This document shows, piece by piece, positions 43,632 to 64,000 of a stretch of 64,000 bases of DNA (positions are counted from its first letter, which is position 1; every line of letters starts with the position of its first letter). The translations under genes were made by a program, and so were the position numbers. This DNA is from a virus (lineage: Duplodnaviria > Heunggongvirae > Uroviricota > Caudoviricetes). The notes under the pieces were generated by a model. The model did no database searches. It was not told the origin of the DNA and saw only the letters and a program-made list of their open reading frames with translations. Where the stretch lies: positions 1-64,000 of the IMG/VR virus record IMGVR_UViG_3300003973_000001; one strand, 5' to 3'.

Positions 43632-45163
43632 TATTCGGCATCTTTAATACGAACAGTGGTATCAGTTGGCTTTTCTGATTGCGGTCTTCCCTTCTCTTTT
43701 TCTTGAGCTTCGTTTCCGCTCATTGTATGAGAAGTCTGTTTCGCAATCATAAGGTCATCAATCGTTAGAACTTGCTGTTCAAAGACTAATATCATAGCAA
43801 ATTCTATTGGAGTCATTCCGCAATAAGCTAAGTACTCCATACGAGAACCACCAAATGAAAGTTGGTCTTTAGCAGTCTTAATTGCTTCATCTCTATCGAA
43901 GTGTGAAATATTTAAGAATTTCGTTTTCCAAGTGACTGACTTTTTGCTTGCCTTCTTCAGTTCATAATTGTAATAATTAGTAAACATAGGAAGCAGGAAA
44001 CTGTACAGCCATTGGCAATCTACTTGAATAGAACGTTCTAAAGCTTGAGAGCTAGAGTTGTCGTCCGCGAATAACTGAGGTGATACACCTGCACCCTTAT
44101 AAAGTTGCTCAGATGTTTTATCTAGCAACGAGAATTTACCGTCTTTACCAGTTCCGTTAAGCGTAATACCTCTCGTATCGAAAGGATTCGTAATCGCTAC
44201 AGAACCTTCTGGTAAACTCTTTTTAAGAGCATTATGATATTCGTGAACTACTGGAAGCTCCATTAAAGGTCTTCCCTTGTCATCGGTCTCAATTTTAGAA
44301 TGAACAATTTTGGAATTATCCAGTTTATCTGTATCTTCCATTTTGTCTTTTGCATTCTCAATCTTGATTGCATCGATAAGAGCGTTGGCAATCGGTGGCA
44401 AAGCCATACCTCCGTTAGCTAAAACATCGGTATCGATTGTGAATGCTACACCTTTATCCGATACTTGATACCATCGTCCTTCAATCAACTTTTCAGTTTG
44501 ACCGTTTTTGTAAGACGTATAAGCATTCTGTAGCTCTTTTGGAAATACTTCAAAAGTAGCATCAGAAATCTTTGTTACGTCAAATTGGAATCGATATACG
44601 CCATCTTCCACGTATCCAACGCGACAGAAAGCAGGAGCAATATCTTGATAAACAACACCCTTTGAATCTTCCAATTTATACTGATATGTAACACCAGTAG
44701 TAAACAGTTTTTCTGTAAAGATTGGAAGATTGTACTTAGGGTTTAATCTATCTAAATAGACTGCTGTATTAACAAATGATTCCTGCGTTTTCTTCATATC
44801 GCTAGATTTAATCTTCATAGGATTCGTAAGAATTGGGTAAAGCACATGGTCAAATGTTAGCAAGCTACTCATATACTTTATGATTCTCTTGTACATACCA
44901 TTGACCTGTTTCATAGAAGACGATAGCCCTGCAACTTGCACAGCACTCTTAGCAGGGTCTTGAAGCATTGTCTTGAGACGAGATTCGCTCATACCTCTTG
45001 CTCCGTTATTACCACCACTAGAGCCTTTAAAGTTTGCTGAGGCTGATGCGAACTTAGAATGTTCTAGCACCGAATTCGGCTTCTCGCTATTATTCTTGCG
45101 TCTTCGCTTGTAATAATTGTTAGTATTACGATTATTCAACGCTTCTTCACCTACCATAAGCAA
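43631..45163 (-). CDS. portal protein
   Basis: 510 aa, immediately downstream of TerL. Confidence 0.65.
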   Translation of the reverse strand: MLMVGEEALNNRNTNNYYKRRRKNNSEKPNSVLEHSKFASASANFKGSSGGNNGARGMSESRLKTMLQDPAKSAVQVAGLSSSMKQVNGMYKRIIKYMSSLLTFDHVLYPILTNPMKIKSSDMKKTQESFVNTAVYLDRLNPKYNLPIFTEKLFTTGVTYQYKLEDSKGVVYQDIAPAFCRVGYVEDGVYRFQFDVTKISDATFEVFPKELQNAYTSYKNGQTEKLIEGRWYQVSDKGVAFTIDTDVLANGGMALPPIANALIDAIKIENAKDKMEDTDKLDNSKIVHSKIETDDKGRPLMELPVVHEYHNALKKSLPEGSVAITNPFDTRGITLNGTGKDGKFSLLDKTSEQLYKGAGVSPQLFADDNSSSQALERSIQVDCQWLYSFLLPMFTNYYNYELKKASKKSVTWKTKFLNISHFDRDEAIKTAKDQLSFGGSRMEYLAYCGMTPIEFAMILVFEQQVLTIDDLMIAKQTSHTMSGNEAQEKEKGRPQSEKPTDTTVRIKDAE

Positions 45164-46902
45164 TATTGAAGTAAGTCATCGTTTCCACCAGTTTTTAAGA
45201 TGTCATTCTCTAATAGAGTCGCTACATAGTTTCCATATCCAATAGAGGAGTATCTATCCTTTGTAGTTGTTCCGACTTCTTTAATCTTGATGTAACCATT
45301 TCTAACTTCGTATACAAGGTTAACTAGCTCGTTCGTTAAAGCAGTTGTCTGCATAAACGGTCTTAGCATGTGAACCTGTTCTTCCGTTGTTTTCTTCATA
45401 TAACCCTTGCGCTCGATTAAATCTTCTTTCGCTTCAATATCATTGATAAGTAAGCGAATTTTGCGCTTCTCAAAAGCAATTCGTAATCCTGTAGCAACCT
45501 TATGGTTTAACTCAGAATTACCTTTAATGGAATAGATGATTGGAATGGCGTTAGCGTCAATTTTACGCTCATCCATTGCCTCATCATTAATTACTGTCCA
45601 AGCAGGATATTCTTCATCTCTATCTTTGTCATAGAGTATTTTTGTACAAGAATCATAGATTGCTATACCATTACCATTTGTATCCATGCCAACAAAGTCA
45701 GCTTCGAAATCATAGAATAGTTGTTTTAATCTAATTGCTTGAAGTTCAGCATGTTGTCCTGCCATACTCTCTAAGTAAACTACGTCGCGTCTAAATTCTT
45801 CGCCTTGTGGCAATAATCTCATTAACGTGAAAGCAGTTGTATCATTTCTAACCGATTTACTGCTACCCATTAAGGCAATATCCATACTTACAATACGGAT
45901 TTCTCCTGCCTGTTTAGGCATGTTCGTAAGTTTCTTCCTACTACCCTTGTTTTCTACAAACTCTCGGTCTGTAGGAGGATAGAAAGGTTTAGGAAGTGTT
46001 CTACACTTCTGAATATCATCTAATTTGTAGTAAGCGTTCTCATTTTCACCAACGAAAAGCGCCTCATATTCCATGTCCCAGCTCATCTGGTCAAAGTCTT
46101 CTTCTGTTCTTTGCTGTTCTACACGCTTCTTAGATAAGAGCTTGTGATACACAGATAACTGCCAAGGCAGTACAGCAACGAAGTAATCTTTGCCTGCCAT
46201 CATTTGTTTTATATACGAATTGAAAGATTCATATATCCAATGATTTTTATACCACGCTGAAGAGATATAAATTTCCTTATTCTCTTCTTCTAAGTGTTGG
46301 TATTTTGGATTTGCTAAGTACGGTGGAGTACGGTTTACGTTCAAGAATGGACGTAAAATAGTATCGATTGTTTCTTTTGATATCAACCTAAACTCGTCAA
46401 CTATTAATATATTAGCGCGGTATCCGCGAGCTGAGTCGCCTGACGTTACGGCTGTAATTTTAGAGCCATTAAAGAAGACTACGTAACATTCGTTAGCACT
46501 AGTCTTGAATTCTTTTATTTCTCGCTCAACATTTTTAGAGTTGTTTTTAAGAGCGAATATCTTCTCTGTGATTATTAATCTCGCTTGTCCTTTTGTACCA
46601 GATGCAAGCACGATATTAGAGCCTGGGAAAAGTATAGCCCTAATTACACAGTAAACTGCGATTAGGTAAGACTTCCCTTGTCCGCGCGCCGCCAAATACA
46701 TAAAGAAACCATAGTGGTTCATCGCCCACAATAGAATCTTCTGATATAGAAACAAGTGTATTCCGAGATAATCCTTTGCAAATCGTTGTGGATTTGCTCT
46801 ATAGAACGATGTCCATAATTTAAAGCCATCTCTCAGCTTATCTGTTTTTGTTTTAGTTTCTTGGGAATTTTTAGTAACCTTAGACATATCAGTCTTCACC
46901 AT
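45151..46902 (-). CDS. terL: terminase large subunit
   Basis: Walker A (AARGQGKS), ATPase then nuclease domain order. 583 aa. Confidence 0.85.
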   Translation of the reverse strand: MVKTDMSKVTKNSQETKTKTDKLRDGFKLWTSFYRANPQRFAKDYLGIHLFLYQKILLWAMNHYGFFMYLAARGQGKSYLIAVYCVIRAILFPGSNIVLASGTKGQARLIITEKIFALKNNSKNVEREIKEFKTSANECYVVFFNGSKITAVTSGDSARGYRANILIVDEFRLISKETIDTILRPFLNVNRTPPYLANPKYQHLEEENKEIYISSAWYKNHWIYESFNSYIKQMMAGKDYFVAVLPWQLSVYHKLLSKKRVEQQRTEEDFDQMSWDMEYEALFVGENENAYYKLDDIQKCRTLPKPFYPPTDREFVENKGSRKKLTNMPKQAGEIRIVSMDIALMGSSKSVRNDTTAFTLMRLLPQGEEFRRDVVYLESMAGQHAELQAIRLKQLFYDFEADFVGMDTNGNGIAIYDSCTKILYDKDRDEEYPAWTVINDEAMDERKIDANAIPIIYSIKGNSELNHKVATGLRIAFEKRKIRLLINDIEAKEDLIERKGYMKKTTEEQVHMLRPFMQTTALTNELVNLVYEVRNGYIKIKEVGTTTKDRYSSIGYGNYVATLLENDILKTGGNDDLLQYCLW

Positions 46903-47725
46903 CTAGCTTAACTATGTCTTCATCTTTAATTAATCCGAATACACGCTTGATTTGCGTTACGAACCATCGGTCAACGTATTTCTTAATACCGTCAACATCT
47001 CTTAGGTCTTCGGATGCTTCTGGAATAGGCTCGGTTTCCTCAATTTTCTTTACCCAAGAACCCCAGTCATTCAGTCCACTATCTTGAGCGTTACCTGTAT
47101 CTTGAACTGGTTTTAAGTTAGCATCATTCATCTGCTTCGATAAAGTATTCATTAACTTCTCGAACTTGCTTACGTCACCGTCATCTAGTGCGGTGTTAGC
47201 TAACCATTGAGTGCGTGCCATATTCTTATAGATGTTCTCTTGGATTGGGGTATCACATCCATATGCGATTGCGAGTCTATCGAACTCTTCTTGTAAGAAC
47301 ATATAATCGTCCTTTTGCAAGTTTCTTCCCCATCTCTTGACAATAGTTTCGGTTACCTCGAAATCTTTATATTCGATTTCGGTCAGTTCGGCTCTATTTG
47401 TTCTTCCTGTTAAATCATCACTATCTTTGAATCTCTTTTCTTGATTCTGTTTCAGTGAATTGATATTTTTGAAGTAAGTGCCGACTGTCTCTGTACTAGC
47501 GTCATTCGCTACTTTCCATTGTGATTTGAAATACGGAATATCCATTGTCCGTAAGAAATCAACCATTGTGTCCATGTCGTCTAAATCGACATTCTCTTTC
47601 ACACATTTTTTACAGAATCCAAATTGTTCATTTATTAACGGATTCCTGTGTGAATAAAACGAAGAAACCGCATATTCTTTACCGCATTTCAAACAAGTCT
47701 TTTTTTCTGATGGCTGTCGTGCCAT
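46889..47725 (-). CDS. putative terminase small subunit / zinc-ribbon DNA-binding protein
   Basis: CxxC...CxxC N-terminus. Sits directly upstream of TerL. Confidence 0.4.
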   Translation of the reverse strand: MARQPSEKKTCLKCGKEYAVSSFYSHRNPLINEQFGFCKKCVKENVDLDDMDTMVDFLRTMDIPYFKSQWKVANDASTETVGTYFKNINSLKQNQEKRFKDSDDLTGRTNRAELTEIEYKDFEVTETIVKRWGRNLQKDDYMFLQEEFDRLAIAYGCDTPIQENIYKNMARTQWLANTALDDGDVSKFEKLMNTLSKQMNDANLKPVQDTGNAQDSGLNDWGSWVKKIEETEPIPEASEDLRDVDGIKKYVDRWFVTQIKRVFGLIKDEDIVKLDGED

Positions 47726-47779
47726 ACTATCACCGCCTTGTGAAACACGAATAAAAAGAAAGGAGATTACTCCCCTTCC

Positions 47780-48220
47780 TTAAATGTTTTCTGAAATATT
47801 TATTACATCTGTTAATGCTTCATAAACAGATTCTAGTTTTAATTCAATTCTAAATTTACTACCACTACCAAAGTGTTCTTTAACCTCTTGCGGTAAGTAA
47901 TGCGGTAGAATCATAATGTCTGACTCATGGTCAATGTATTTCTTGTTAACGCCTTTGATATCATCTGCGTAAAAGGCATTGCCTTCTTCTCCAATATCAG
48001 AGGTAACAAGAAAGTATTCTTTAGCGCCTAAGTCAATAGCCTTTTCATCATATAATGATAGGTCGATTACTTTTAAAAGCTCAAGCGTATCATTCTTATC
48101 TAAGACGATTGCAATATTGCGCTTTGTTTCTCCATATGGATGTCCACCAATGAAGTAAGCGATATGTTCCATCGCTATTTTATGTGAGTCTACTGGCATT
48201 TCATATTTAACTTGGTTCAC
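47780..48220 (-). CDS. hypothetical protein
   Basis: ORF. Confidence 0.5.
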   Translation of the reverse strand: MNQVKYEMPVDSHKIAMEHIAYFIGGHPYGETKRNIAIVLDKNDTLELLKVIDLSLYDEKAIDLGAKEYFLVTSDIGEEGNAFYADDIKGVNKKYIDHESDIMILPHYLPQEVKEHFGSGSKFRIELKLESVYEALTDVINISENI

Positions 48221-48660: not shown

Positions 48661-48682
48661 CAACATAATATTTAGTTGTCAA

Positions 48683-48753
48683 CAGGGGTTGTAGGAATCG
48701 AACCCACACTGGAGGTTTTGGAGACCTCTGTTCTACCGTTAAACTAAACCCCT
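48683..48753 (-). tRNA. tRNA-Trp (anticodon CCA)
   Basis: Hand-folded cloverleaf. Acceptor AGGGGTT/AACCCCT, anticodon loop CTCCAAA, T-loop GGTTCGATTCC. CCA not encoded. Confidence 0.75.
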
Positions 48754-48757
48754 AAGA

Positions 48758-48834
48758 TGGCATCCCATACAGGATTCGAACCTGCGAATGCTCGATAGAA
48801 AGTCGAGTGTGTTAGCCAATTTCACCAATGGGAC
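48758..48834 (-). tRNA. tRNA-Glu (anticodon TTC), CCA encoded
   Basis: Cloverleaf with anticodon stem CTCGA/TCGAG and loop CTTTCTA. Position 37 is U, which is unusual. Confidence 0.6.
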
Positions 48835-48965
48835 ATAAAGCACAAGGGTTGTTTACGTTTTTTGTTTTGGACACCCAAGAAACATAAAACTTTCTATAAT
48901 TAGTGACGAATCAAGGCATTGCCTTTGCGTTTTTTTGAATAGAAAGAAACGTATTAAGTCCATAA

Positions 48966-49039
48966 TGCCGACTGTAGGAATCGAACCCACGACCTGTTGC
49001 TTACAAGGCAACCGCTCTAACCTGCTGAGCTAAGTCGGC
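48966..49039 (-). tRNA. tRNA-Thr (anticodon TGT)
   Basis: Acceptor GCCGACT/AGTCGGC. Anticodon stem-loop GTTGC CTTGTAA GCAAC. Confidence 0.75.
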
Positions 49040-49094
49040 AAAACTGAGGACTAGCCTCAGAAATCATAGTAAGGAGGGCTTACAAATGAATAAA

Positions 49095-49166
49095 AGGGAC
49101 ATGAGGGAATCGAACCCTCGTCATCTGGTTGGAAGCCAGAGATAATAGCCTCTATACGAATGCCCC
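49095..49166 (-). tRNA. tRNA-Gly (anticodon TCC)
   Basis: Anticodon stem-loop TCTGG CTTCCAA CCAGA. T-loop GGTTCGATTCC. Confidence 0.7.
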
Positions 49167-49167
49167 A

Positions 49168-49244
49168 TGGAGGAGAGAGTGAGATTCAAACTCACGAATA
49201 ATAGGGTTGCAACCTATCGCGTTAAGCCACTTCGCCATCTCTCC
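49168..49244 (-). tRNA. tRNA-Cys (anticodon GCA), CCA encoded
   Basis: Acceptor GGAGAGA/TCTCTCC. Anticodon stem-loop ATAGG TTGCAAC CCTAT. Confidence 0.7.
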
Positions 49245-49247
49245 ATA

Positions 49248-49334
49248 TGGTGGGAAAGGTAGGATTCGAACCTACGAAACTTGTAAGGTAACAGATTTAC
49301 AGTCTGCCTGCTTTAACCCCTTGCATACTCGCCC
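49248..49334 (-). tRNA. tRNA-Tyr (anticodon GTA), long variable arm, CCA encoded
   Basis: Anticodon loop CTGTAAA. 87 nt, class II. Confidence 0.7.
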
Positions 49335-49342
49335 AAATAAAA

Positions 49343-49372
49343 TAGCGCCCATATTTCAGAGCGCTGTTATGT
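49343..49372 (-). terminator. hairpin terminator after 49374..49637, immediately upstream of tRNA-Tyr
   Basis: AGCGC-(12 nt)-GCGCT followed by ATTTTATTT. Confidence 0.45.
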
Positions 49373-49373
49373 T

Positions 49374-49637
49374 TTAATCTAATTCTACAAATTTATTAAT
49401 CTTGGCTTTAAATCGAGCATTTTGCTCTTTGCCTGCTTTTGCACTATTTACAGAAGATTGAAGTTTATCAATTTCGGCTTGCTTCTTGGCGATTTCGCCT
49501 TGGGCATCCTTAATAATAACGTCAAATTCAGCATCTGATTTATCTACTGATGCAATCGCATCTGCAAAAACCGTTTGTGCATTTTTAAAAGTATTTTCTG
49601 CTTTCGCAATCTTTTGTTCATGATTCATCTTTAGCAT
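49374..49637 (-). CDS. hypothetical coiled-coil protein embedded in the tRNA island
   Basis: ORF with a downstream hairpin terminator (49343-49372). Confidence 0.5.
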   Translation of the reverse strand: MLKMNHEQKIAKAENTFKNAQTVFADAIASVDKSDAEFDVIIKDAQGEIAKKQAEIDKLQSSVNSAKAGKEQNARFKAKINKFVELD

Positions 49638-49660
49638 AACTCTCTCATTCTCCCTTGTTT

Positions 49661-49735
49661 GCTAATTTAATGGTACAGGTGGCAGGATTTGAACCTGCGT
49701 GACCTCCGCCCCAAACGGAGTGACTGACCTCTAGC
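49661..49735 (-). tRNA. tRNA-Pro (anticodon TGG), CCA encoded
   Basis: Anticodon stem-loop CTCCG TTTGGGG CGGAG. Acceptor has two G-U pairs. Confidence 0.6.
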
Positions 49736-49851
49736 CTACACCCATATAATAAAAGCTACCGTTATTTTAAGCTTCTATAGTCCTCTTAATAAGAGTCCAG
49801 AAGTGTGCTTTCATGAGAACCGTAGCGAAACTCAGTGTGTGTGAAAAATAT

Positions 49852-49938
49852 AAGTAAGGAAAGGAGAATACAGGATTCGAACCTGTGGGAGCATTCAGTC
49901 TCCACTTCTTTAGCAAAGAAGCACAATAAGCCACTCTG
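49852..49938 (-). tRNA. tRNA-Ser (anticodon GCT), class II
   Basis: Acceptor GGAGAAT/ATTCTCC. Anticodon stem-loop CTTCT TTGCTAA AGAAG. Long variable arm. Confidence 0.7.
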
Positions 49939-50017
49939 ACAATTCTCCACGTTGGTACTCGTTTTATTCGGAACACGAGTATACATTCCACTCATCGATG
50001 ACAATGCTAGGTGAGCA

Positions 50018-50091
50018 ATCGCATAAGCTTCGGAGGAAGGGGTCGAACCTCCACGTTCTTGGGTCAAAGCCAAGTGACTTTACCAATTTGT
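50018..50091 (-). tRNA. tRNA-Gln (anticodon TTG)
   Basis: Acceptor TTCGGAG/CTCCGAA. Anticodon stem-loop CTTGG CTTTGAC CCAAG. Confidence 0.65.
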
Positions 50092-50097
50092 CTACTC

Positions 50098-50187
50098 CGA
50101 AATAATGTGGCGGAGAGTGAGGGACTTGAACCCCCATCGGCTTTCACACCTACGCTAGTTTTCAAGACTAGTCTCTTACCAATTAGA
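50098..50187 (-). tRNA. tRNA-Ser (anticodon TGA), class II, CCA encoded
   Basis: Acceptor GGAGAGT/ACTCTCC. Anticodon stem-loop CTAGT CTTGAAA ACTAG. Confidence 0.7.
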
Positions 50188-50192
50188 GTAAC

Positions 50193-50267
50193 TCTCCACA
50201 TTTGGCGAGGATAACGAGATTCGAACTCGTGCTACATGGTAGACAGCCATGTGTGTTGACCACTACA
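50193..50267 (-). tRNA. tRNA-Asp (anticodon GTC), CCA encoded
   Basis: Acceptor GGGGATA/TATCCTC. Anticodon stem-loop CATGG CTGTCTA CCATG (U37 again). Confidence 0.65.
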
Positions 50268-50374
50268 CTATATCCCCAAAGCTGTTCTAGCCACCACAGC
50301 TAGAACAGGAGGTAGGAGGTTTTAAAATGAACCAAGATTTAGGTGTTTATAGATTGGATTTAACCAATGCCTAA

Positions 50375-50455
50375 ACATATTAAGAGCCGAGTGCAGGAAT
50401 CGAACCTGCGACCAAAAGTCTGTTACTGAGCGCTCCTTATCGCTTTACCACTAAG
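50375..50455 (-). pseudogene. tRNA-like element (81 nt) lacking a canonical anticodon arm
   Basis: Perfect acceptor GCCGAGT/ACTCGGC, D-arm GCTT/AAGC and T-arm GCAGG-TTCGATT-CCTGC. The 31 nt between them contain a GAGCGCTC palindrome and no 5-7-5 anticodon hairpin. Confidence 0.4.
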
Positions 50456-50521
50456 CTAACTCGGCATAATGTGGAGCAGGAAGTGAGGGACGACCTCATA
50501 GACAATCGTTAATTGCAACCT

Positions 50522-50618
50522 GCATATGGAGTTCTGTAGGTGGGAGTCGAACCCACATGACAAATACTTGACCCTTTCTTTCCCATTTGGGATTACTCGA
50601 ACCTTTCAATATCGCTGA
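50522..50618 (-). ncRNA. oversized tRNA-like element (about 97-100 nt)
   Basis: Acceptor-type terminal pairing GTTCTGT(G)/(C)ACAGAAC and perfect T-arm GTGGG-TTCGACT-CCCAC (the selC-type T-loop). The internal region is too long for a standard tRNA and I could not fold it by eye. Confidence 0.35.
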
Positions 50619-50624
50619 CCTTCA

Positions 50625-50701
50625 CAGAACATAATGGCGTGTCTAGATGGACTTGAACCAACGACCCTCCGCTTAACAGGCGGATGCTCTAACCAACTGA
50701 G
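50625..50701 (-). tRNA. tRNA-Asn (anticodon GTT), CCA encoded
   Basis: D-arm GCTCAGTTGGTTAGAGC. Anticodon stem-loop TCCGC CTGTTAA GCGGA. Confidence 0.7.
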
Positions 50702-50921
50702 CTACAGACACAAATTTGAGGATAGTACCGTTCCTATCCTCAATAACATATATAGTAGGAGGAAAATACATGTCGAGAAAAACAAGCAGGTTGTAACTGG
50801 ATTTGCACCAGTCATCATCCATCTAGGACAACCATGAAAAGAAGCCACGCCAATCAGCATGACTCCTTGGGTATGTTTTGGGGAGTAGCTATCGCATTTC
50901 CCCAGTTATGTTTGTTTTAAA

Positions 50922-54632: not shown

Positions 54633-54649
54633 TGAAGTGTGTGAAAGTC

Positions 54650-54740
54650 GAAAGCGCCACTGCGCGCGACCACCCACTTATCTCTCTCTTCTTAATATGG
54701 TTCTTTTCTGCTTAAATGGTTCTCTTTTATTAGACCCCCA
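54650..54740. repeat. GC-rich segment (GCGCCACTGCGCGCGACCACCCAC...TTAGACCCCCA) duplicated at 54948-55016
   Basis: About 80-bp imperfect direct repeat preceding each iteron array. GC-rich, unlike the flanking AT-rich DNA. Confidence 0.5.
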
Positions 54741-54862
54741 GATTTACACCAATAGGGGGTGTGTATTTCCGTATACCTGTCGGAGATTTACACCCCCTAT
54801 TGGTGTAAAAATCCGTATACCCTCGGAGATATACACTAGCAGGGGGTGTAAATCTCCGTATA
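54741..54862. repeat. iteron array 1: at least 3 copies of a ~22-bp unit TATACGGAGATTTACACCCCCT (some as inverted pairs)
   Basis: Direct and inverted copies of GGTGTAAATCTCCGTAT / TACACCCCCTATTGGTGTA. Confidence 0.6.
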
Positions 54863-54903
54863 CTTTAACTCATGGATAAATTTTAACAGAGAATAAGAAA
54901 TAC

Positions 54904-54922
54904 TGCAATACTTTTGTTTAAA
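54904..54922 (-). promoter_or_regulatory. 19-bp motif class A heading the first iteron unit
   Basis: ctgcaatacttttgtttaa. Confidence 0.55.
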
Positions 54923-55016
54923 GGAATACGTTTCAGTAGTGGGAAAAGAGCGCCACCGCGCGACCCCACTACTATCTCTCTCTGCTTCGTCTGGTTCTCT
55001 TATTATTAGACCCCCA

Positions 55017-55094
55017 CATTTACACCCCCTAGTGGTGTAAATCTCCGTATGGTATGCGGAAATACGCACCCCTAGAGGGTGTAAATCTCCGTAT
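55017..55094. repeat. iteron array 2: 2-3 copies of the same unit
   Basis: atttacaccccctagtggtgtaaatctccgtat ... agagggtgtaaatctccgtat. Confidence 0.6.
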
Positions 55095-55132
55095 CAGTGA
55101 GATGTATAGAAATTTGGGTGAGTGATTTTTGC

Positions 55133-55165: not shown

Positions 55166-55410
55166 GAACCAGAAATTTATTGTCAGATTGAAGGGGATTC
55201 TGCTACAATGAATACAACAAACAAATCTTGAAAAAGCAAAAACGCCCTATCCTTTGTAAGTTTGGCGACCTGCAAGGATAAAGCGTTCGAAAGATAAAAC
55301 ATAGAATTCAGTTTTTTGTTACCTCAATAATATCATACATATAATATGTATGCAAAGGAATTCTATGATTTTTTCTTCCTGCTTTTTCTATAAAAATGGG
55401 GGAATTGAAT

Positions 55411-56445
55411 ATGGCTAGACCAGATGGTTATGATGTAGAAGGTTACATCCACTTTATTAAGAAGAGAGTAGATGGGACTCATTGGGTTGGCAAAGGAGAG
55501 AGTGCTAGAGAGATGCCTAATAAAGAAGCGTATGAAGTGCCTTTTGAATCTATCGAAAACTTAGACCTTAATAGGATTGGTAATGAGATTTCTTATCTTA
55601 ATAGCAATGTCTGGAATGTAGAAAGATATATGGCTTATTTCTGGAAGCAAATAATGGATGCTGATTCTATTTTCGTTTGGAAGCATCTGTGGGAATATGC
55701 AAATGAAGCAGAGAATATTGATATGTGTTATCCGAAAATGTCTGAATTGATGCAGAGATGCGGATTATCGAGACCCACCCTAATTGACAAGATAAAGAAA
55801 CTGGAAGAGAACAACTTCCTTATTCAAATACATAGATTAAACAAGAAGTCCGATAATAAAAAAGAAGACAGCCCATTATTCAAATTAAGAAGAACTATAC
55901 CTCTGCTGTCGAAAGAACAGGTTGAAAAGCTTACTCCTTTTATGAAGAAAAAGCATGACGATTACATGAATAAGTTTGCTAGTAAATCTAGTCTAGAATG
56001 GTTCTCTGCGAGCGGTAAAGAAACTGTTGATAATCTTATAGAGACTTCTGGAGACAGAATCGTATCTAGCAAGGCAAGACAGGAAATCAAGAATCTGCTA
56101 AAGAACGAGGAAGAAGAAGGTTATATAATTGTGAACCTCCCTCCTCATATGCAGGACACATTAAAAGATTCTAATTCACTACATGAGGCTCTTATGAAGA
56201 ACGGATTTAGTAAACCGTCAGTAGAATTGCTATTTGGAGACGTAATGTCTACATATGATAGTGAGACATCTACTGCACATATTATTACCAGAAAAAGTTC
56301 TCAGAAAGAGTATTATGAGAAAAATATGGAAGATAAGTATAAAGACATGCTATTCTCATCACTAATTGAAATGTACGATTCTGTTGGAGATATAAAGTAC
56401 TTCACTACAGAACAATATATAATTACAATTCTGAAGGGCAAATAA
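55411..56445 (+). CDS. winged-helix DNA-binding protein flanked by repeat arrays (replication initiator / origin-binding candidate)
   Basis: HTH-like segment PKMSELMQRCGLSRPTLIDKIKKLEENNFL. Iterons upstream, DnaA-box/palindrome array downstream. Start moved to ATG 55411 (GGGGGA RBS). Confidence 0.55.
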   Translation: MARPDGYDVEGYIHFIKKRVDGTHWVGKGESAREMPNKEAYEVPFESIENLDLNRIGNEISYLNSNVWNVERYMAYFWKQIMDADSIFVWKHLWEYANEAENIDMCYPKMSELMQRCGLSRPTLIDKIKKLEENNFLIQIHRLNKKSDNKKEDSPLFKLRRTIPLLSKEQVEKLTPFMKKKHDDYMNKFASKSSLEWFSASGKETVDNLIETSGDRIVSSKARQEIKNLLKNEEEEGYIIVNLPPHMQDTLKDSNSLHEALMKNGFSKPSVELLFGDVMSTYDSETSTAHIITRKSSQKEYYEKNMEDKYKDMLFSSLIEMYDSVGDIKYFTTEQYIITILKGK

Positions 56446-56493
56446 GCCCTTCTTTTTTTTATCTATTTTCGTTCACATTTTAGACACATTTGG

Positions 56494-56720
56494 TTATCCG
56501 CCTAGTGTAAAGAAATTTTATACTATGATTTTCGCCTAGTATAAAGAAATTTTATACTATACCATAAAGAAATTTTATACTATAGTGTAAAGAAATTTTA
56601 CACTATAGAAACACTCACTTATCCCCAGATTCTGTGGATAACCTAGTATAAAGTTTTTTTATACTATAAAACCCTAGTGTAAAATTTCTTTATAGTCCCC
56701 CTAAAGAATCTTTACACCCT
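56494..56720. repeat. array of at least 6 palindromic 24-bp repeats (TAGTRTAAAGAAATTTTATACTAT) flanked by three DnaA-box-like 9-mers
   Basis: TTATCCGCC at 56494, TTATCCCCA at 56619, perfect TTATCCACA (complement) at 56634-56642. Each repeat is itself an inverted repeat TAGTATAAA/TTTATACTA. Confidence 0.6.
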
Positions 56721-56979
56721 ATATCTTTATGATTCTATATATCTTTTTATTATTAATTAATATAAGATTCCATAAGAATCATTAGTGTAGAATTTTCAGA
56801 AAATACAAGTCTCCAGAAATACGAATCTCGAATCGGTAGACATATAGACCCTCCAGAATACTCCTCTCACCTCCATACTGACTCACTGACACGTTCTACG
56901 AACGAAGTAATCCAAATATATCTGTAAAAATAGCCCCTCCCCTACGGAGCGCTACCTATCTTAAAATTTATTATTTTTA

Positions 56980-60520: not shown

Positions 60521-60711
60521 AAATAGTCTTCTTTTTTATTTTGTACCACTTTTAGACCAATAATTGGTACATAGGGTGGTCAATCTATTATTTTTTCTAT
60601 ATTTTTTTCATCTATCAAACTCTTCAGTACCAAGGCTTGGCACTGAGGGTGGTCTAATTTCTGTCTTTCGGGTATTGCAAAGTAGAGAAATGCGTGATTT
60701 AATATAGACAA
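60521..60711. repeat. repeat sites upstream of the ParM-like gene: two palindromes each followed by AGGGTGGTC(A/T)AAT
   Basis: GACCAATAATTGGTACATAGGGTGGTCAATC and ACCAAGGCTTGGCACTGAGGGTGGTCTAATTTC. Confidence 0.45.
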
Positions 60712-60738
60712 ATGGTAAATGAAGGAGAGATTGGCAAA

Positions 60739-61878
60739 ATGGTCAAGAAAACTGCGTTAAAAGTTACTATGAAATACGATAGAGTTATTGGAATCGACTT
60801 AGGTAACGGTCTTGTAAAGATTAGAAGTGTTTACAAAAGCGGTGAATTATATGAACTGACTCTTCCAAGCGCATTCGGAAAACTGATTGATGTAGGGAAC
60901 AGTGTTGGGGGAGAAGAGCTAGATTTAGATACATATAGAATTAATGGCATCGATTATGTATGGGGAGAAGATATCACTAGACTTCGAGACAAGATGAAGC
61001 CTTGCTACGGTCATCAAGGAAGATATGAATCTGAAGCATATAAGATTATGGCTCAAATCGCTATGTCTAGAGTTGTAAAGGATTTAGGAATCGATGCAAC
61101 GGAAAAGGTTTTAGTAGTAACTGGAGTTCCTTCTATTGAAACTGATACAGAGTGCGAGACTGATATAGCGAATGCTTTCTATGGAGAAAGCTCTGGATTC
61201 TTCGAAACAGTAGTAAATGGACAAGAGTACAGCTACAGATTAGCTCACGTACAGGTTACAGCACAGGCTCTGGCAACTGTAATTGGAAGATATATAGATG
61301 AGGTTGGAAGAGTATTAAATTCGGATTATGAGAAGATTAAGGTAGCTGTAGTTGATATCGGTGCAGGCACAACGGATTTAGATGCTGTATTTGAGCTTCG
61401 TAGACAATCGAACTACCATAGTATCCAACGAGGATTCAGAGATGTTTATGAGGATATCAGAACGTATATTAGAAAGTATCATCCTTCTCATGTTGTTACG
61501 GACTACGATATCTTAGAAATCATCGAAGAAGTAGGGGATATGAGGAAGAGGCAGGAACTTGAAGCTTCTATTAGCAAGAAGAAGAAAGAGGATATTCGAT
61601 ATGAATACACTCCTTCAAAGAGAAGCGCACCAGTAGATTTCACTGATGTATTCCTTAATTCATTATATGAGCTTGCAATGGATATTCAGCAGGCTATACT
61701 TGATAAGTGGAAGAATACACTTGAATTTGATGAAATATTAATCGTTGGAGGAAGCGCAGAACACTTCTCTGACATGATGTTAAAGATTGTTAAGGATGCA
61801 ATTATCCCAGAGAACAATGGAGATAGTAACGTAGAGGGTTATTACAGATTGGGCGTAAGTATCGCACTGGCAGGATAA
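60739..61878 (+). CDS. ParM/StbA-like actin-fold partition ATPase
   Basis: N-terminal phosphate-1 motif VIGIDLGNGLVKI. DIGAGTTD phosphate-2 motif. GAAGGAGAG RBS then ATG 60739. Confidence 0.7.
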   Translation: MVKKTALKVTMKYDRVIGIDLGNGLVKIRSVYKSGELYELTLPSAFGKLIDVGNSVGGEELDLDTYRINGIDYVWGEDITRLRDKMKPCYGHQGRYESEAYKIMAQIAMSRVVKDLGIDATEKVLVVTGVPSIETDTECETDIANAFYGESSGFFETVVNGQEYSYRLAHVQVTAQALATVIGRYIDEVGRVLNSDYEKIKVAVVDIGAGTTDLDAVFELRRQSNYHSIQRGFRDVYEDIRTYIRKYHPSHVVTDYDILEIIEEVGDMRKRQELEASISKKKKEDIRYEYTPSKRSAPVDFTDVFLNSLYELAMDIQQAILDKWKNTLEFDEILIVGGSAEHFSDMMLKIVKDAIIPENNGDSNVEGYYRLGVSIALAG

Positions 61879-61890
61879 GGAGTGTAAAGA

Positions 61891-62178
61891 ATGTCTATAT
61901 ATAAGCTACCATTAGATGATGATGTTGATGTGGATATACAGAAGTGGATGGACAAGATACCTAGAAACAAGAAGGCTGAAGTTATACGACACGCTATAAG
62001 GCTGTATAAGAGCCAACTGAAAGAAGGGGAATTCTTCTATTATCCTACTGGAGAAGGCGTGTATAAGGTCAATAATACGCAAGAGGAAGTTATTGAAGAG
62101 GAAGAGATAGAAGAAGAGAGACCGATGGCTAATCCTGCATTCTTAGCTAGTATGCACAAGGCGAAGGGTGATAAATAA
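61891..62178 (+). CDS. ParR-like ribbon-helix-helix adaptor (putative)
   Basis: 95 aa. KKAEVIRHAIRLY RHH-like N-terminus, acidic C-terminus. Immediately downstream of the ParM-like gene. Confidence 0.45.
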   Translation: MSIYKLPLDDDVDVDIQKWMDKIPRNKKAEVIRHAIRLYKSQLKEGEFFYYPTGEGVYKVNNTQEEVIEEEEIEEERPMANPAFLASMHKAKGDK

Positions 62179-62384
62179 TGAGAAGAGTCTTTTATGAAAT
62201 GAACGTTATGACCAAGGGTGAGACGTTCACTAAGAAATTCTCTATAGAATACGATAGGGAAGAGTACGATAGTAATTCTGAGAATTTAGATGCTGAGATT
62301 ATTTCATATAAATGGAGCGAACTAGTTAAGGAGTACGGTATAGATGCATTTCTAGTTAGCTATTCAATAGAAAGAGAACTTTAA
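62178..62384 (+). CDS. hypothetical protein
   Basis: ORF. ATG overlaps the upstream stop. Terminator hairpin at 62388-62420. Confidence 0.45.
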   Translation: MRRVFYEMNVMTKGETFTKKFSIEYDREEYDSNSENLDAEIISYKWSELVKEYGIDAFLVSYSIEREL

Positions 62385-62387
62385 GTC

Positions 62388-62420
62388 GAGTAGAGATACT
62401 CGGCTTTTGTTTATGTTTGG
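62388..62420 (+). terminator. rho-independent terminator
   Basis: CGAGTA-gaga-TACTCG followed by GCTTTTGTTTATGTTT. Confidence 0.55.
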
Positions 62421-62478
62421 ATATATTTGGGTAGTATAAATAATGCGATTTATATAATGAAAAAGGGGAGGGATTTAC

Positions 62479-62739
62479 TTGCTTAGCGATAAGGAGATAG
62501 TGATTGCAAACTTTGCATTTAATGATATTCGCAAGAATTGTTTTGAGGAAGATAGTCCTATGACTGCATACGCAGGCGAGAAATTGATAAAGGACTTGTG
62601 TAATTCGTTATTTAAAAGAGGTGCTACAGTAGAAGAGATAGAGATTATTATGAAAAATAATGGATTCGACATGATAATAAATGTTAAAGATGTAGATGAG
62701 TTAACAATGAAAAGGTTGAAGAAGACAGAGGAGATGTAG
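62479..62739 (+). CDS. hypothetical protein
   Basis: TTG start after GGGGAGGGA RBS. Confidence 0.45.
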   Translation: MLSDKEIVIANFAFNDIRKNCFEEDSPMTAYAGEKLIKDLCNSLFKRGATVEEIEIIMKNNGFDMIINVKDVDELTMKRLKKTEEM

Positions 62740-62741
62740 GT

Positions 62742-62990
62742 ATGAATTTTCCAGTTGGTCTTACAAGTGGGGCTAAATATCTATTAGAACTTTACACTGA
62801 CAGAAATAGAGATAAGATGGATATCTCTCTAGCTGAGTTGGTGGGTAAGTATTATGATGGAGAATCTGCGATGGATTACTCTGCGGTGATGCTTGGAAAT
62901 CATGTCTTGGTAGGGTATGAGAACAAAGAAGGCAAGTTTATGGCTGAAACTCTTGATGAAATTGTAATGAGAATGAAGGAAACTGGCTAA
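62742..62990 (+). CDS. hypothetical protein
   Basis: ORF. Confidence 0.45.
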   Translation: MNFPVGLTSGAKYLLELYTDRNRDKMDISLAELVGKYYDGESAMDYSAVMLGNHVLVGYENKEGKFMAETLDEIVMRMKETG

Positions 62991-62999
62991 AATATAGCA

Positions 63000-64000
63000 A
63001 ACCGAGACGATTTTGTGGTAAAATTGTAGCAAATAATGCTGTGATAAGCCCAGATTCGTCTTATTTTTGTTATTATGAGTCGAAACAGGGTTAAAAAGGT
63101 GTAAAAGCGTGACAAAAGTGCTAAATAACGCTTAATAAGGCTTATTTATGGCTTATTATAGGCGTATCGGTGAATATATGATGAAATATCGTTAAAATAG
63201 CTTTCGAACGACCTTAACGTACAGAGGTAGATGGTAGAAGGGGTTAGTTGTATTTAAGTACCTATTTTATGTCGTAAATAACCCCTCTGGATGGTTAAAT
63301 AGGGTAGGGGAAGTAAGGATGTTGACGAGACGCTTTACGAGAGGGATAAAATAGCAAAAAAGTCAATGGTTGGTAAGATTAGGGTAGGATTAGTGGAGAT
63401 TCGTATCGGAATCGGTAAAATATTTGTGGTGTGTGGATGAGGGTACATAGGTCGGTTGGCTAGGAAAAGTCCCCCTAATATGTGGTAAATAGCCCCCCTA
63501 CGCCTGTCATCCTATTTCCTATTAGTGCGACACGTACACGCCACACATGCAGGCAGGCGCACACATACGCGCACACGTACACGCGCGAGCGCATGGAAGG
63601 AAATGGAAAAGTTGAGAGACTCCTTACAATGGGAATCATTTACTATACATTGTTTATGCATACGCTGAATAGCGCGCAGGAGGAGAGGGAAAATTCCACC
63701 GACCCAATAGGGATAGGCTTCTCGGTAAGGAATGCATGCGGTGTGGAACATGGAGCTACCATACATATTTATTCATTCTTACCACTCACCACGACACCAT
63801 ACAACCTCAATTAATCCCACGCTTTCCAACACCACAAACCCACTAATACCAATACTTCAACCACTATGACAACATACCATACAACTAACATCAATCACCA
63901 CTGTATAAACACTGCATATACAACGTTATACATTCCAACAATTACCAACAAGACTATATCAACTATACAACCTACTTGTATACATGGCATCATCGAATAC
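63000..64000. other. ORF-free region with extreme, polarity-switching strand composition and a (CA/CG)n core
   Basis: 63000-63500 is C-poor and G/T/A-rich on the plus strand. 63520-63600 has CACGTACACGC/CACACATACGCGCACACG microsatellite-like words. 63780-64000 is almost G-free and C/A-rich. No credible ORF. Confidence 0.5.

What the first reader, a model, noticed from the sequence alone, without database searches (positions are those of the whole stretch)
63000..64000. 1-kb ORF-free region with extreme strand asymmetry flipping around a (CA/CG)n core
From 63000 to about 63500 the plus strand is almost devoid of C (G/T/A-rich, with repeated GGTAAATARCCCC and AGGGTAGG words). Then 63520-63600 contains CACGTACACGC / CACACATACGCGCACACG low-complexity repeats. 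From 63780 to 64000 the plus strand is nearly G-free and C/A-rich. No ORF with an RBS is present. This composition is unlike any other part of the window. A polarity switch of this kind can mark a physical genome end or terminal repeat, a packaging or replication initiation/termination site, a telomere-like region of a linear plasmid-prophage, or a long structured ncRNA locus.
Basis: seen in the sequence. Interest (0 to 1): 0.65.

Follow-up and report, generated by a model that had tools for sequence, protein, structure and literature searches.

The report
SPbeta-type phage DNA packaging start region
The odd stretch is the left part of a large non-coding region that matches the experimentally mapped DNA-packaging start (the virion genome end) of SPbeta-like Bacillus phages, here in a plasmid-borne relative; the strand-composition flip falls where that DNA is predicted to be cut.

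Summary
Window 63000-64000 has no credible gene. Its G-poor right arm (63756-64000) has the most extreme GC skew in the 64 kb. Its 31-nt purine/pyrimidine-alternating tract is the longest, and its phased A-tracts are the strongest.

The window is an SPbeta-like phage carrying plasmid replication and partition genes. The finding covers the left ~1 kb of a 2.6-3.8 kb non-coding region, conserved in layout in eight related Bacillus cereus-group loci (seven elements).

The same layout occurs in SPbeta, phi3T and BUCT082: A-tracts, a G-rich arm, a ~250-bp neutral block, then a G-poor arm. There, published virion read mapping (PhageTerm) puts the genome opening point at the right edge of the block. 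That is where the G-poor arm begins. The linear BUCT082 record starts at that base.

A motif and ~125 nt around the block's left edge are shared with the window. Whole-fragment profile searches were not significant.

Best explanation: this is the pac (genome-opening) region, with the cut predicted near 63755/63756 and packaging running leftwards. Plasmid origin, linear-plasmid telomere and structured RNA readings are not supported. It is a new member of a known kind. The conserved strand polarity at the ends is not mentioned in the source read here and remains unexplained.

The parts
63001..63071 (+). Long hairpin (AGACGA...TCGTCT) followed by TTATTTTTG. It is a terminator-like end for the upstream small-gene transcript and marks the left border of the non-coding region.
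   Evidence: MFE fold. Conserved in L004, L006 and L018. The terminator scan did not call it because the loop is too long, so the terminator role is inferred.
63010..63230 (.). Array of about 18 units of 10-11 bp (G-N-N followed by an A/T tract). These phased A-tracts predict intrinsically curved DNA.
   Evidence: Strongest 10-11 bp AAA periodicity in the window (1.15; mean 0.06, sd 0.08). The syntenic array in the B. wiedmannii plasmid is the strongest in all 137.6 kb (5.5), and phi3T has its + strand top value in the first 70 kb at 55,001.
63256..63288 (+). Copy 1 of the 33-nt direct repeat, carrying the motif ATGTCGTAAATAACCCC.
63299..63317 (+). Box ATAGGGTAGGGGAAGTAAG in the G-rich arm.
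   Evidence: Matches the pattern ATAGGGTAGGGNAAGTAAG in all eight B. cereus-group loci where it was checked. phi3T and SPbeta have GAGAGTAGGGGAAAG at the equivalent place; this resemblance was judged by eye.
63423..63499 (+). Segment TTTGTGGTGTGTGGATGAGGGTACATAGG ... ATGTGGTAAATAGCCCCCC, which includes copy 2 of the 33-nt repeat. It is the counterpart of the left edge of the SPbeta ~250-bp pac block (GGGTGTGGAAATGGAAGT|GCTATGGGTACAT...GATGTAAATATACCCC).
   Evidence: The composite motif GGTAC-N25-38-ATGT..AA..TA..CCCC occurs once in the window, once in 70 kb of phi3T (inside the mapped block) and once in the 137.6-kb plasmid. The ATGT..CCCC part alone is expected 0.08 times per genome by chance. 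Local alignment z = 4.9 against phi3T and SPbeta, 0 of 500 shuffles.
63437..63755 (.). Compositionally neutral central block, the predicted counterpart of the ~250-bp block bounded by the two mapped ends in SPbeta-like phages. It contains the CA/CG core.
   Evidence: Skew near 0. Its position relative to the motif and the flip is the same in all loci. Block definition comes from supplementary item 11 of 10.1101/2021.11.22.469490.
63530..63587 (.). ACACGTACACGC three times, plus the 31-nt perfect purine/pyrimidine alternation at 63557-63587.
   Evidence: Long alternating tracts are present in every B. cereus-group relative with different sequences. They are absent from the phi3T block.
63740..63770 (.). 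Conserved block GGTGTGGAACATGGAG|CTACCATACATATTTATTC with the composition flip at 63755|63756. This is the predicted genome opening point, with packaging running towards lower coordinates.
   Evidence: The cumulative-skew maximum lies 246-276 nt after the motif in 8 of 9 B. cereus-group loci. In phi3T the mapped start is 214 nt after the motif, at the start of the G-poor arm. Compare BUCT082 ...AATCGAAG|ACATATTTTTTATAC. The exact base in the window is inferred, not measured.
63756..64000 (+). G-poor, C/A-rich arm (G 3-7%), cut off by the window end.
   Evidence: Most extreme skew in the window and in the whole B. wiedmannii plasmid. It continues about 1 kb in L018, L004 and L002. The corresponding arm is about 300 nt in phi3T and about 250 nt in SPbeta.
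45151..47725 (-). Packaging enzymes that would act on the site: the large terminase (45151-46902) and a YonG-like protein with CxxC pairs (46889-47725).
   Evidence: The terminase is 47% identical to that of phi3T and other SPbeta-like phages and 51% to Lysinibacillus phage LC76P1. The YonG-like protein is 29% identical to phi3T YonG, E = 6e-31.

Best explanation
Window 63000-64000 is the left ~1 kb of the pac (genome-opening) region of an SPbeta-like temperate phage. This phage is maintained as a plasmid in the Bacillus cereus group.

Proposed mechanism, by analogy with SPbeta, phi3T and Goe11-14:
1. The replicated phage DNA is a concatemer.
2. The terminase complex recognises this region.
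3. The phased A-tract array and the G-rich boxes on the left, and the G-poor arm on the right, flank a compositionally neutral block of about 320 bp.
4. The first cut is made at the right edge of that block, predicted at about 63755/63756.
5. DNA is then fed into the prohead leftwards, towards the rep/par module and the late genes, by a headful mechanism.

The strand-composition flip therefore marks a physical end of virion DNA.

Shown: the layout, its conservation, local sequence similarity to the mapped SPbeta block, and homologous terminase proteins.
Inferred: that the cut happens here in this element, its exact base, and the role of each arm.
For: (1) The element is SPbeta-like.
- TerL is 47% identical to that of phi3T and other SPbeta-like phages, and the YonG-like protein is 29% identical to phi3T YonG (E = 6e-31).
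- Gene order is the same: late genes on the minus strand, early genes on the plus strand.

(2) The opening point is mapped experimentally in SPbeta-like phages.
- Kohm et al. (bioRxiv 10.1101/2021.11.22.469490) ran PhageTerm on virion reads and placed the opening point between yonP and yonR.
- They give a ~250-bp block, GCTATGGGTACAT...AATCGAAG, with packaging starting at its last base and running counter-clockwise.

(3) In phi3T that block is 55,273-55,524.
- A G-rich arm lies directly to its left (skew +0.64).
- A G-poor arm lies directly to its right (skew -0.78).
- These are the two extreme skew values of the first 70 kb.
- The strongest + strand A-tract phasing lies just upstream.
- In SPBc2 the whole yonP-yonR spacer has the same layout.

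(4) Independent GenBank records agree.
- The linear BUCT082 record begins at the opening point, and its last 300 nt contain only 15 C.
- BUCT083 begins at the block's left edge.

(5) The window and eight B. cereus-group loci share the same order of parts: terminator, A-tract array, G-rich boxes, motif, neutral block, G-poor arm. In 8 of the 9 sequences the flip lies 246-276 nt after the motif.

(6) There is local sequence similarity.
- The composite motif is unique in each genome, and in phi3T it falls inside the mapped block.
- The ~125 nt around it align at z = 4.9 (window) and z = 6.9-8.0 (L002) against phi3T and SPbeta, with 0 of 500 shuffles reaching the score.

(7) The region is constrained. 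Within one clade its identity (78-96%, almost no indels) equals that of the flanking genes. Between the two B. cereus-group clades only the boxes and the composition survive.
Against: - No virion DNA or read data exist for this element or its B. cereus-group relatives, so no end has been observed here.
- nhmmer profiles do not give a significant match in either direction: the SPbeta block against the window and relatives, or the B. cereus-group boxes against phi3T.
- The motif was defined, and the aligned segments chosen, after I had seen both sequences. The shuffles were mononucleotide. The similarity statistics are therefore optimistic.
- The site lies about 15 kb from the terminase genes. 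An 8-kb rep/par module separates it from the late-operon start, whereas in SPbeta it abuts yonP.
- The G-poor arm is 1.0-1.3 kb here against 0.25-0.3 kb in SPbeta and phi3T. The purine/pyrimidine-alternating core is absent from phi3T. Neither is explained by packaging alone.
- The putative small protein next to the terminase (47780-48220) has no detectable similarity to phi3T YonH.
Confidence: 0.72

Rival explanations
1. Transcriptional boundary. The region insulates the constitutively expressed plasmid maintenance genes from the co-oriented phage early operon. A hairpin terminator comes first. It is followed by a long untranslated, unstructured, C-rich and G-poor stretch on which Rho would load and stop read-through. 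G-poor RNA cannot carry start codons or Shine-Dalgarno sites. The regulated early promoters lie at the far end.
For: - The region sits between the rep/par module and about 75 kb of co-oriented early genes.
- There are terminator-like hairpins, with compensatory stem changes between L002 and L003.
- G-poverty is conserved while the sequence is not.
- Beyond the window there are promoter-like sites and four TGTTACA iterons, a cluster unique in the 137.6-kb plasmid.
Against: - It does not explain the phased A-tracts, the G-rich arm, the shared motif, or why the flip coincides with the mapped DNA end in phi3T, SPbeta and BUCT082.
- In SPbeta the same layout sits between divergent genes, where no read-through insulation is needed.
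- It could be a secondary role of the long arm rather than a rival.
Confidence: 0.12
2. A replication or segregation site: a lytic origin, a second plasmid origin or copy-control locus, or the centromere for the Alp7A-like actin.
For: - Curved DNA, repeats and AT-rich stretches are typical of origins and centromeres.
- In L004 the AT-rich right part, outside the window, has perfect DnaA boxes.
- The 10-mer GGTACATAGG occurs only upstream of the actin gene and at 63442.
Against: - The plasmid origin is clearly elsewhere: about 7 iterons plus DnaA boxes at 56480-56780, next to the initiator gene.
- Global skew extremes are at 55 kb in the window, and at 120 and 28 kb in the circular relative.
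- The DnaA boxes in the region are not conserved in clade B.
- Words shared with the actin-gene upstream region are no more frequent than in shuffles.
- The likely centromere repeats lie upstream of the actin gene.
Confidence: 0.08
3. A long non-coding RNA. This could be a structured RNA from the central block, or a GU-rich minus-strand transcript through the G-poor arm.
For: - The minus strand of 63460-63800 folds better than shuffles: z = -3.06 in the window, -2.42 in L002 and -1.38 in L004. The plus strand does not.
- A conserved promoter-like site (TTGACA, 17-18 nt, TGnTAnnnT) points leftwards into the arm in L004, L002 and L003.
Against: - No Rfam family matches, even at E up to 1.
- The covariation term is near zero and few pairs have compensatory changes in either clade.
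- The folding excess can come from G-U pairing between oppositely skewed arms.
Confidence: 0.05
4. Telomere or terminal inverted repeat of a linear plasmid-prophage of the N15 type.
For: The composition is mirror-like around a core, and the left arm carries TTAGGG-like words.
Against: - The arms share no inverted repeat beyond chance: scores of 23-27 against shuffle means of 20-24.
- The core is not a palindrome.
- The complete relative is a circular 137.6-kb plasmid, and three further long contigs read straight through the region.
Confidence: 0.01

Closest known systems
pac / genome-opening region of Spbetavirus phages (SPbeta, phi3T, Goe11-14), mapped by PhageTerm between yonP and yonR (Kohm et al., bioRxiv 10.1101/2021.11.22.469490; earlier restriction mapping by Fink and Zahler 1982, as cited there and in PMC8270828)
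   Same: - Same phage type, with homologous TerL and YonG-like proteins.
- Gene-free region at the head of the plus-strand early block.
- Same order of parts: terminator, A-tracts, G-rich arm, motif GGTAC...ATGT..AA..TA..CCCC, neutral block, G-poor arm.
- The flip lies 214-276 nt after the motif.
- About 125 nt around the block's left edge are alignable.
   Different: - Overall sequence is not detectably similar by profile search.
- The region is 2.6-3.8 kb instead of about 1 kb.
- The G-poor arm is 3-4 times longer.
- A GC-rich purine/pyrimidine-alternating core is present.
- The motif repeat is duplicated in clade A.
- An 8-kb plasmid rep/par module separates it from the late operon.
- The host is the B. 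cereus group and the lifestyle is plasmid-borne.
- No ends have been mapped.
   Same: It works alike in outline. A cleavage point is flanked by two recognition arms, and one arm has phased A-tracts that curve the DNA for wrapping by the small terminase. Packaging is headful and unidirectional.
   Different: SPP1 pac lies at the small-terminase gene, spans about 270 bp and has no reported strand-composition flip. Kohm and Hertel report no sequence similarity between SPbeta and SPP1 pac (PMC8270828).
Telomere resolution site telRL of linear plasmid-prophages (N15, PY54, phiKO2)
   Same: It is a physical DNA end in a plasmid-borne prophage, with some mirror symmetry around a core.
   Different: It requires a long perfect palindrome and a protelomerase. 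Neither is found here, and the relatives are circular.
Eukaryotic-type telomere strand polarity (G/T-rich 3'-ending strand)
   Same: This is an analogy only. If the ends are as in SPbeta, both 3'-ending strands of the virion DNA are G/T-rich and C-poor just inside the terminal block.
   Different: There is no tandem repeat unit and no telomerase, and the DNA circularises after injection. The resemblance is compositional and may have an unrelated cause.

Membership tests
Spbetavirus pac / genome-opening region | The host genome is an SPbeta-like phage with homologous packaging proteins. | tested here: met
   TerL is 47% identical to that of phi3T and other SPbeta-like phages. The YonG-like protein is 29% identical to phi3T YonG, E = 6e-31. 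Gene order is shared.
Spbetavirus pac / genome-opening region | Gene-free region at the junction of the late (minus) and early (plus) blocks, on the early side of yonP. | tested here: met
   It lies at the head of the early plus-strand block, but 8 kb of rep/par genes are interposed. phi3T also has three small genes interposed; SPbeta has none.
Spbetavirus pac / genome-opening region | Sequence similarity to the mapped ~250-bp block. | tested here: inconclusive
   nhmmer profiles are not significant in either direction. The composite motif is unique per genome and falls inside the phi3T block. Local alignment of ~125 nt gives z = 4.9-8.0 with 0 of 500 shuffles, but the segments were chosen after inspection.
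Spbetavirus pac / genome-opening region | Layout of a G-rich arm, a neutral block, then a G-poor arm, with the opening point at the start of the G-poor arm. This feature was derived here, not taken from the literature. | tested here: met
   Window. phi3T. SPBc2. BUCT082.
Spbetavirus pac / genome-opening region | Virion DNA ends map to the site. | not testable with these tools
   No virion reads are available for this element. One relative's contig (IMGVR_UViG_2648501629_000001) breaks inside the A-tract array, several hundred nt left of the predicted cut; this is suggestive at most.
SPP1-type pac site | Located at or within the small-terminase gene. | tested here: not met
   The site is about 15 kb from the terminase genes at 45151-48220.
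SPP1-type pac site | An intrinsically bent arm with phased A-tracts beside the cleavage point. | tested here: met
Iteron-type plasmid or phage replication origin | Initiator iterons, DnaA boxes and an AT-rich unwinding element, coinciding with the skew switch. | tested here: not met
   These features are at 56480-56780. The skew minimum is at about 55 kb and at 120 kb in the relative. Nothing equivalent lies within 63000-64000.
Protelomerase telomere (N15 type) | A long palindrome or inverted arms, and a linear replicon. | tested here: not met
Known structured RNA families (Rfam 15) | A covariance-model match. | tested here: not met
   No match at E up to 1 in the window region or in L003/L004, apart from two chance-level miRNA hits.

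The most novel reading that the evidence does not exclude
The strand-composition flip may itself be a selected, functional property of SPbeta-type genome ends, not a by-product. In every lineage examined, the DNA just inside the terminal block is G/T-rich and C-poor on the strand that ends 3' at that terminus. This holds for the B. subtilis phages SPbeta, phi3T and BUCT082 and for two B. cereus-group phage-plasmid clades. It has persisted while the underlying sequence has turned over completely and the arm length has varied 4-fold.

This telomere-like polarity could serve several ends:
- It could orient arrays of terminase-binding words convergently around the cut.
- It could shape the 3' single strands exposed after injection, for recircularisation or for protection from host nucleases.
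- In the plasmid-borne forms, the G-poor arm could also act as a start-codon-free Rho-loading insulator.
Probability: 0.25. Interest if true: 0.6.

Novelty: new member of a known kind. Interest (0 to 1): 0.4.

Why it matters
- It predicts the packaging start and virion genome ends for a group of about 126-138 kb SPbeta-like phage-plasmids of the Bacillus cereus group, for which none has been mapped. The prediction can be tested to within a few bases.
- It shows that the SPbeta pac region can be recognised by structure when sequence similarity has almost vanished. The signs are the strongest A-tract phasing and the most extreme local GC-skew flip in the genome. These could serve as a cheap predictor of termini in related prophages.
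- It raises a specific open question: why both subterminal 3'-ending strands are kept G/T-rich.

Tried and rejected
- **DNA searches with the region.** The phage collection gave nothing in near or distant mode. The plasmid collection gave only the B. wiedmannii plasmid.
- **Genome-contig scans.** Both found nothing.
- **Rfam.** No hit.
- **Structured RNA.** Only the minus strand folds better than shuffles, and there is no covariation.
- **Binding sites shared with the actin-gene centromere.** Shared words are at chance level.
- **A second origin.** The TGTTACA iterons are unique to the region but lie outside the window. The DnaA boxes are not conserved.
- **An inverted duplication or telomere palindrome.** No similarity between the arms beyond chance.
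- **A specific repeated word in the G-poor arm** (MazF UACAU decoy, sigma-factor -10 boxes). No word is enriched beyond composition in both clades, except GTTACA and AAGCGCT.
- **Small proteins in the arm.** No conserved ORFs.
- **Properly oriented B. subtilis Chi (AGCGG) near the ends.** Not enriched.
- **nhmmer profiles linking SPbeta pac to the window.** Not significant.
- **phi3T YonH against the 146-aa protein next to the terminase.** No similarity.

Full report
**Observation.** I read 61500-64000 and profiled its composition.
- The last credible gene ends at 62990.
- From 63000 to about 63500 the plus strand has 6-16 C and 21-34 G per 100 nt.
- 63500-63755 is balanced.
- From 63756 to the window end G falls to 3-7 per 100, with 26-37 C.

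Among all 200-nt windows of the 64 kb (mean skew -0.08, sd 0.19), the two lowest are at 63751 and 63801 (-0.76 and -0.72). The next lowest anywhere is -0.50. The left arm is no more C-poor than the adjacent plus-strand genes.

- The CA/CG core is real: ACACGTACACGC occurs three times. 63557-63587 is a perfect 31-nt purine/pyrimidine alternation, and the runner-up in the window is 16 nt.
- The repeated words are real.
- There is no credible ORF. The 110-aa GTG ORF is frame-broken in L006 and not conserved as protein.

**What the window is.**
- Late structural genes lie on the minus strand at 9-48 kb, followed by 13 tRNA genes at 48.7-50.7 kb.
- A plus-strand module runs from 55.4 kb. It holds an initiator, an antirepressor, a UvrD-like helicase, an Alp7A-like actin, a 95-aa adaptor candidate and small ORFs.
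- The large terminase is 47% identical to that of phi3T and other SPbeta-like phages. A YonG-like protein is 29% identical to phi3T YonG.
- The closest complete relative is a circular 137.6-kb Bacillus wiedmannii plasmid.

The element is therefore an SPbeta-like phage that carries plasmid replication and partition genes.

**Extent and conservation.**
- Eight related loci from seven elements were recovered: L002, L001/L003, L004 (=L008), L005, L006, L007, L018 (=L020) and L019.
- All have a gene-free gap of 2.6-3.8 kb at the same place. The window shows only its left third.
- L018 is near-identical to the window here and continues it.
- The seven loci compared pairwise fall into two clades that are about 50% identical, which is close to unalignable.
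- A few boxes survive between the clades, for example the pattern ATAGGGTAGGGNAAGTAAG, which is present in all eight loci where it was checked.
- The order of structural features also survives: terminator-like hairpin, phased A-tract array, G-rich arm, neutral core with long alternating purine/pyrimidine runs, then about 1 kb of G-poor arm.
- In the full B. wiedmannii plasmid this region holds the strongest A-tract phasing and the most extreme skew of the whole 137.6 kb. It also holds every alternating run of 13 nt or more found in the 17-kb locus around it.
- Within a clade, identity (78-96%, almost no indels) matches that of the flanking genes.

**Readings that fail.**
- Plasmid origin. It lies at 56480-56780: about seven 23-nt iterons, DnaA boxes and an AT-rich stretch, next to the initiator gene. 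Cumulative skew turns at about 55 kb in the window, and at 120 and 28 kb in the circular relative. These are the gene-orientation switches, not this region.
- Telomere. The two arms are not an inverted repeat and the relatives are circular or read through, so a linear-plasmid telomere is excluded.
- Structured RNA. Rfam finds nothing. Only the minus strand folds somewhat better than shuffles, and covariation is absent.
- Specific motifs. Word enrichment, centromere-motif sharing, small ORFs and Chi orientation gave nothing.

**The key link.**
- I scanned the first 70 kb of phi3T for the same three extremes. Its extreme skew values (+0.64 and -0.78) lie 450-500 bp apart at 55,051 and 55,501-55,551. 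Its top plus-strand A-tract phasing is at 55,001. All fall in a gene-free 1-kb stretch.
- The literature places the SPbeta pac site there. Restriction mapping and later PhageTerm analysis of virion reads locate the genome opening point between yonP and yonR (PMC8270828; bioRxiv 10.1101/2021.11.22.469490).
- The supplement prints the ~250-bp block GCTATGGGTACAT...AATCGAAG. It states that packaging starts at its last base and runs counter-clockwise.
- In phi3T that block is 55,273-55,524. The G-rich arm ends at its left edge, and the G-poor arm begins at the base after the packaging start.
- The linear GenBank record of BUCT082 starts at exactly that base in reverse orientation. Its last 300 nt contain 15 C against 80 G.
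- BUCT083 starts at the block's left edge.
- In SPBc2 the whole yonP-yonR spacer has the same layout.

**Is the window's region the same thing?**
- Profile searches are not significant, so homology cannot be claimed for the whole region.
- Three other lines agree, however.
  - The composite motif GGTAC-N25-38-ATGT..AA..TA..CCCC occurs once in the window (63442-63497), once in phi3T (55,279-55,325, inside the block) and once in the 137.6-kb plasmid. The second half alone is expected 0.08 times per genome.
  - The ~125 nt around it align at z = 4.9 (window) and z = 6.9-8.0 (L002) against phi3T and SPbeta, with no shuffle out of 500 reaching the score.
  - The flip lies 246-276 nt after the motif in eight of nine B. 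cereus-group sequences. In phi3T the mapped start is 214 nt after it.
- Caveat: the motif and segments were chosen after inspection, and the shuffles were mononucleotide.

**Mechanism.** By analogy, the terminase recognises this region on concatemeric DNA. The curved A-tract array and the G-rich boxes form one arm, and the G-poor stretch forms the other. The cut is predicted at about 63755|63756 (GGAG|CTACC). DNA would enter the prohead leftwards by a headful mechanism. The cut position, the roles of the arms and the function of the purine/pyrimidine core are inferred.

**What stays unexplained.**
- The polarity itself. If the ends are as in SPbeta, both 3'-ending strands are G/T-rich and C-poor just inside the terminal block. 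This holds in all lineages despite complete sequence turnover.
- The arm is 3-4 times longer in the plasmid-borne forms. There it also separates the maintenance genes from about 75 kb of co-oriented early genes. A second role as a Rho-loading, start-codon-free insulator is plausible but untested.

**Verdict.** This is a diverged member of a known kind of site, with a compositional signature that is not mentioned in the parts of the source I read.

Noticed in passing
window 56480-56780: Textbook plasmid origin directly downstream of the initiator gene (55396-56445). It has about seven ~23-nt iterons (CTAGTGTAAAGAAATTTTATACTAT), DnaA boxes at 56620 and 56633, and an AT-rich stretch. The window's cumulative GC-skew minimum is nearby (~55 kb).
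   Followed up: partly
window 54640-55100: Two clusters of repeats (GGGGGTGTAAATCTCCGTATAC and its complement), plus a duplicated ~100-nt unit (gcgccac.gcgcgacc.cac...), between the divergent late and rep modules. They look like an operator array for the lysis/lysogeny switch or the late promoter.
   Followed up: no
window 48682-50711 (minus strand): Array of 13 tRNA genes upstream of the terminase genes. This explains the GC-rich, ORF-poor stretch there.
   Followed up: yes
window 60540-60660: Upstream of the Alp7A-like actin gene: a 26-nt direct repeat (60556-60581 and 60629-60654) containing palindromes GTACCAAnnnTTGGTAC followed by GGGTGGTC. Relatives have their own versions (CCAAGGCTTGG in L002, CCAAAACTTTGG in L008). 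This is probably the partition centromere or operator.
   Followed up: partly
L004:3155-3250, L002:11830-11920 (beyond the window end): Four TGTTACA iterons at 11/21/11-bp spacing. The cluster is unique in the 137.6-kb plasmid and conserved in both clades. It overlaps a plus-strand promoter-like site (GTTACA-17-TACAAT) and abuts a minus-strand one (TTGACA-17/18-TGnTAnnnT). It looks like a divergent, repressor-controlled early promoter.
   Followed up: partly
L001 end / L003 start (IMGVR_UViG_2648501629_000001): This 136.6-kb contig is broken inside the A-tract array, with about 46 nt missing relative to L002. This may be a coverage gap in very AT-rich DNA, or a hint of a physical discontinuity.
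   Followed up: no
window 60712-62384 versus L004:1-1577: Mosaicism. The actin protein is only 53% identical between the window and L004. The 68-aa ORF just downstream looks nearly identical (one amino-acid difference, read by eye), and the non-coding region is 85% identical. A recombination junction therefore lies near 62178. L004 also lacks the two small ORFs at 62479-62990.
   Followed up: partly
L018:13100-14600: In the window's closest relative the GP88-family gene that follows the region in L004, L002 and L019 is missing, and the gene-free gap is 3.8 kb. This may be a decayed gene.
   Followed up: no
SPbeta-like phages, ~250-bp block (phi3T 55,273-55,524): The published coverage block has sharp edges of equal size in all isolates, and two GenBank records start at its two edges. 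A short exact terminal repeat, rather than only a pac site with headful redundancy, seems worth testing.
   Followed up: no
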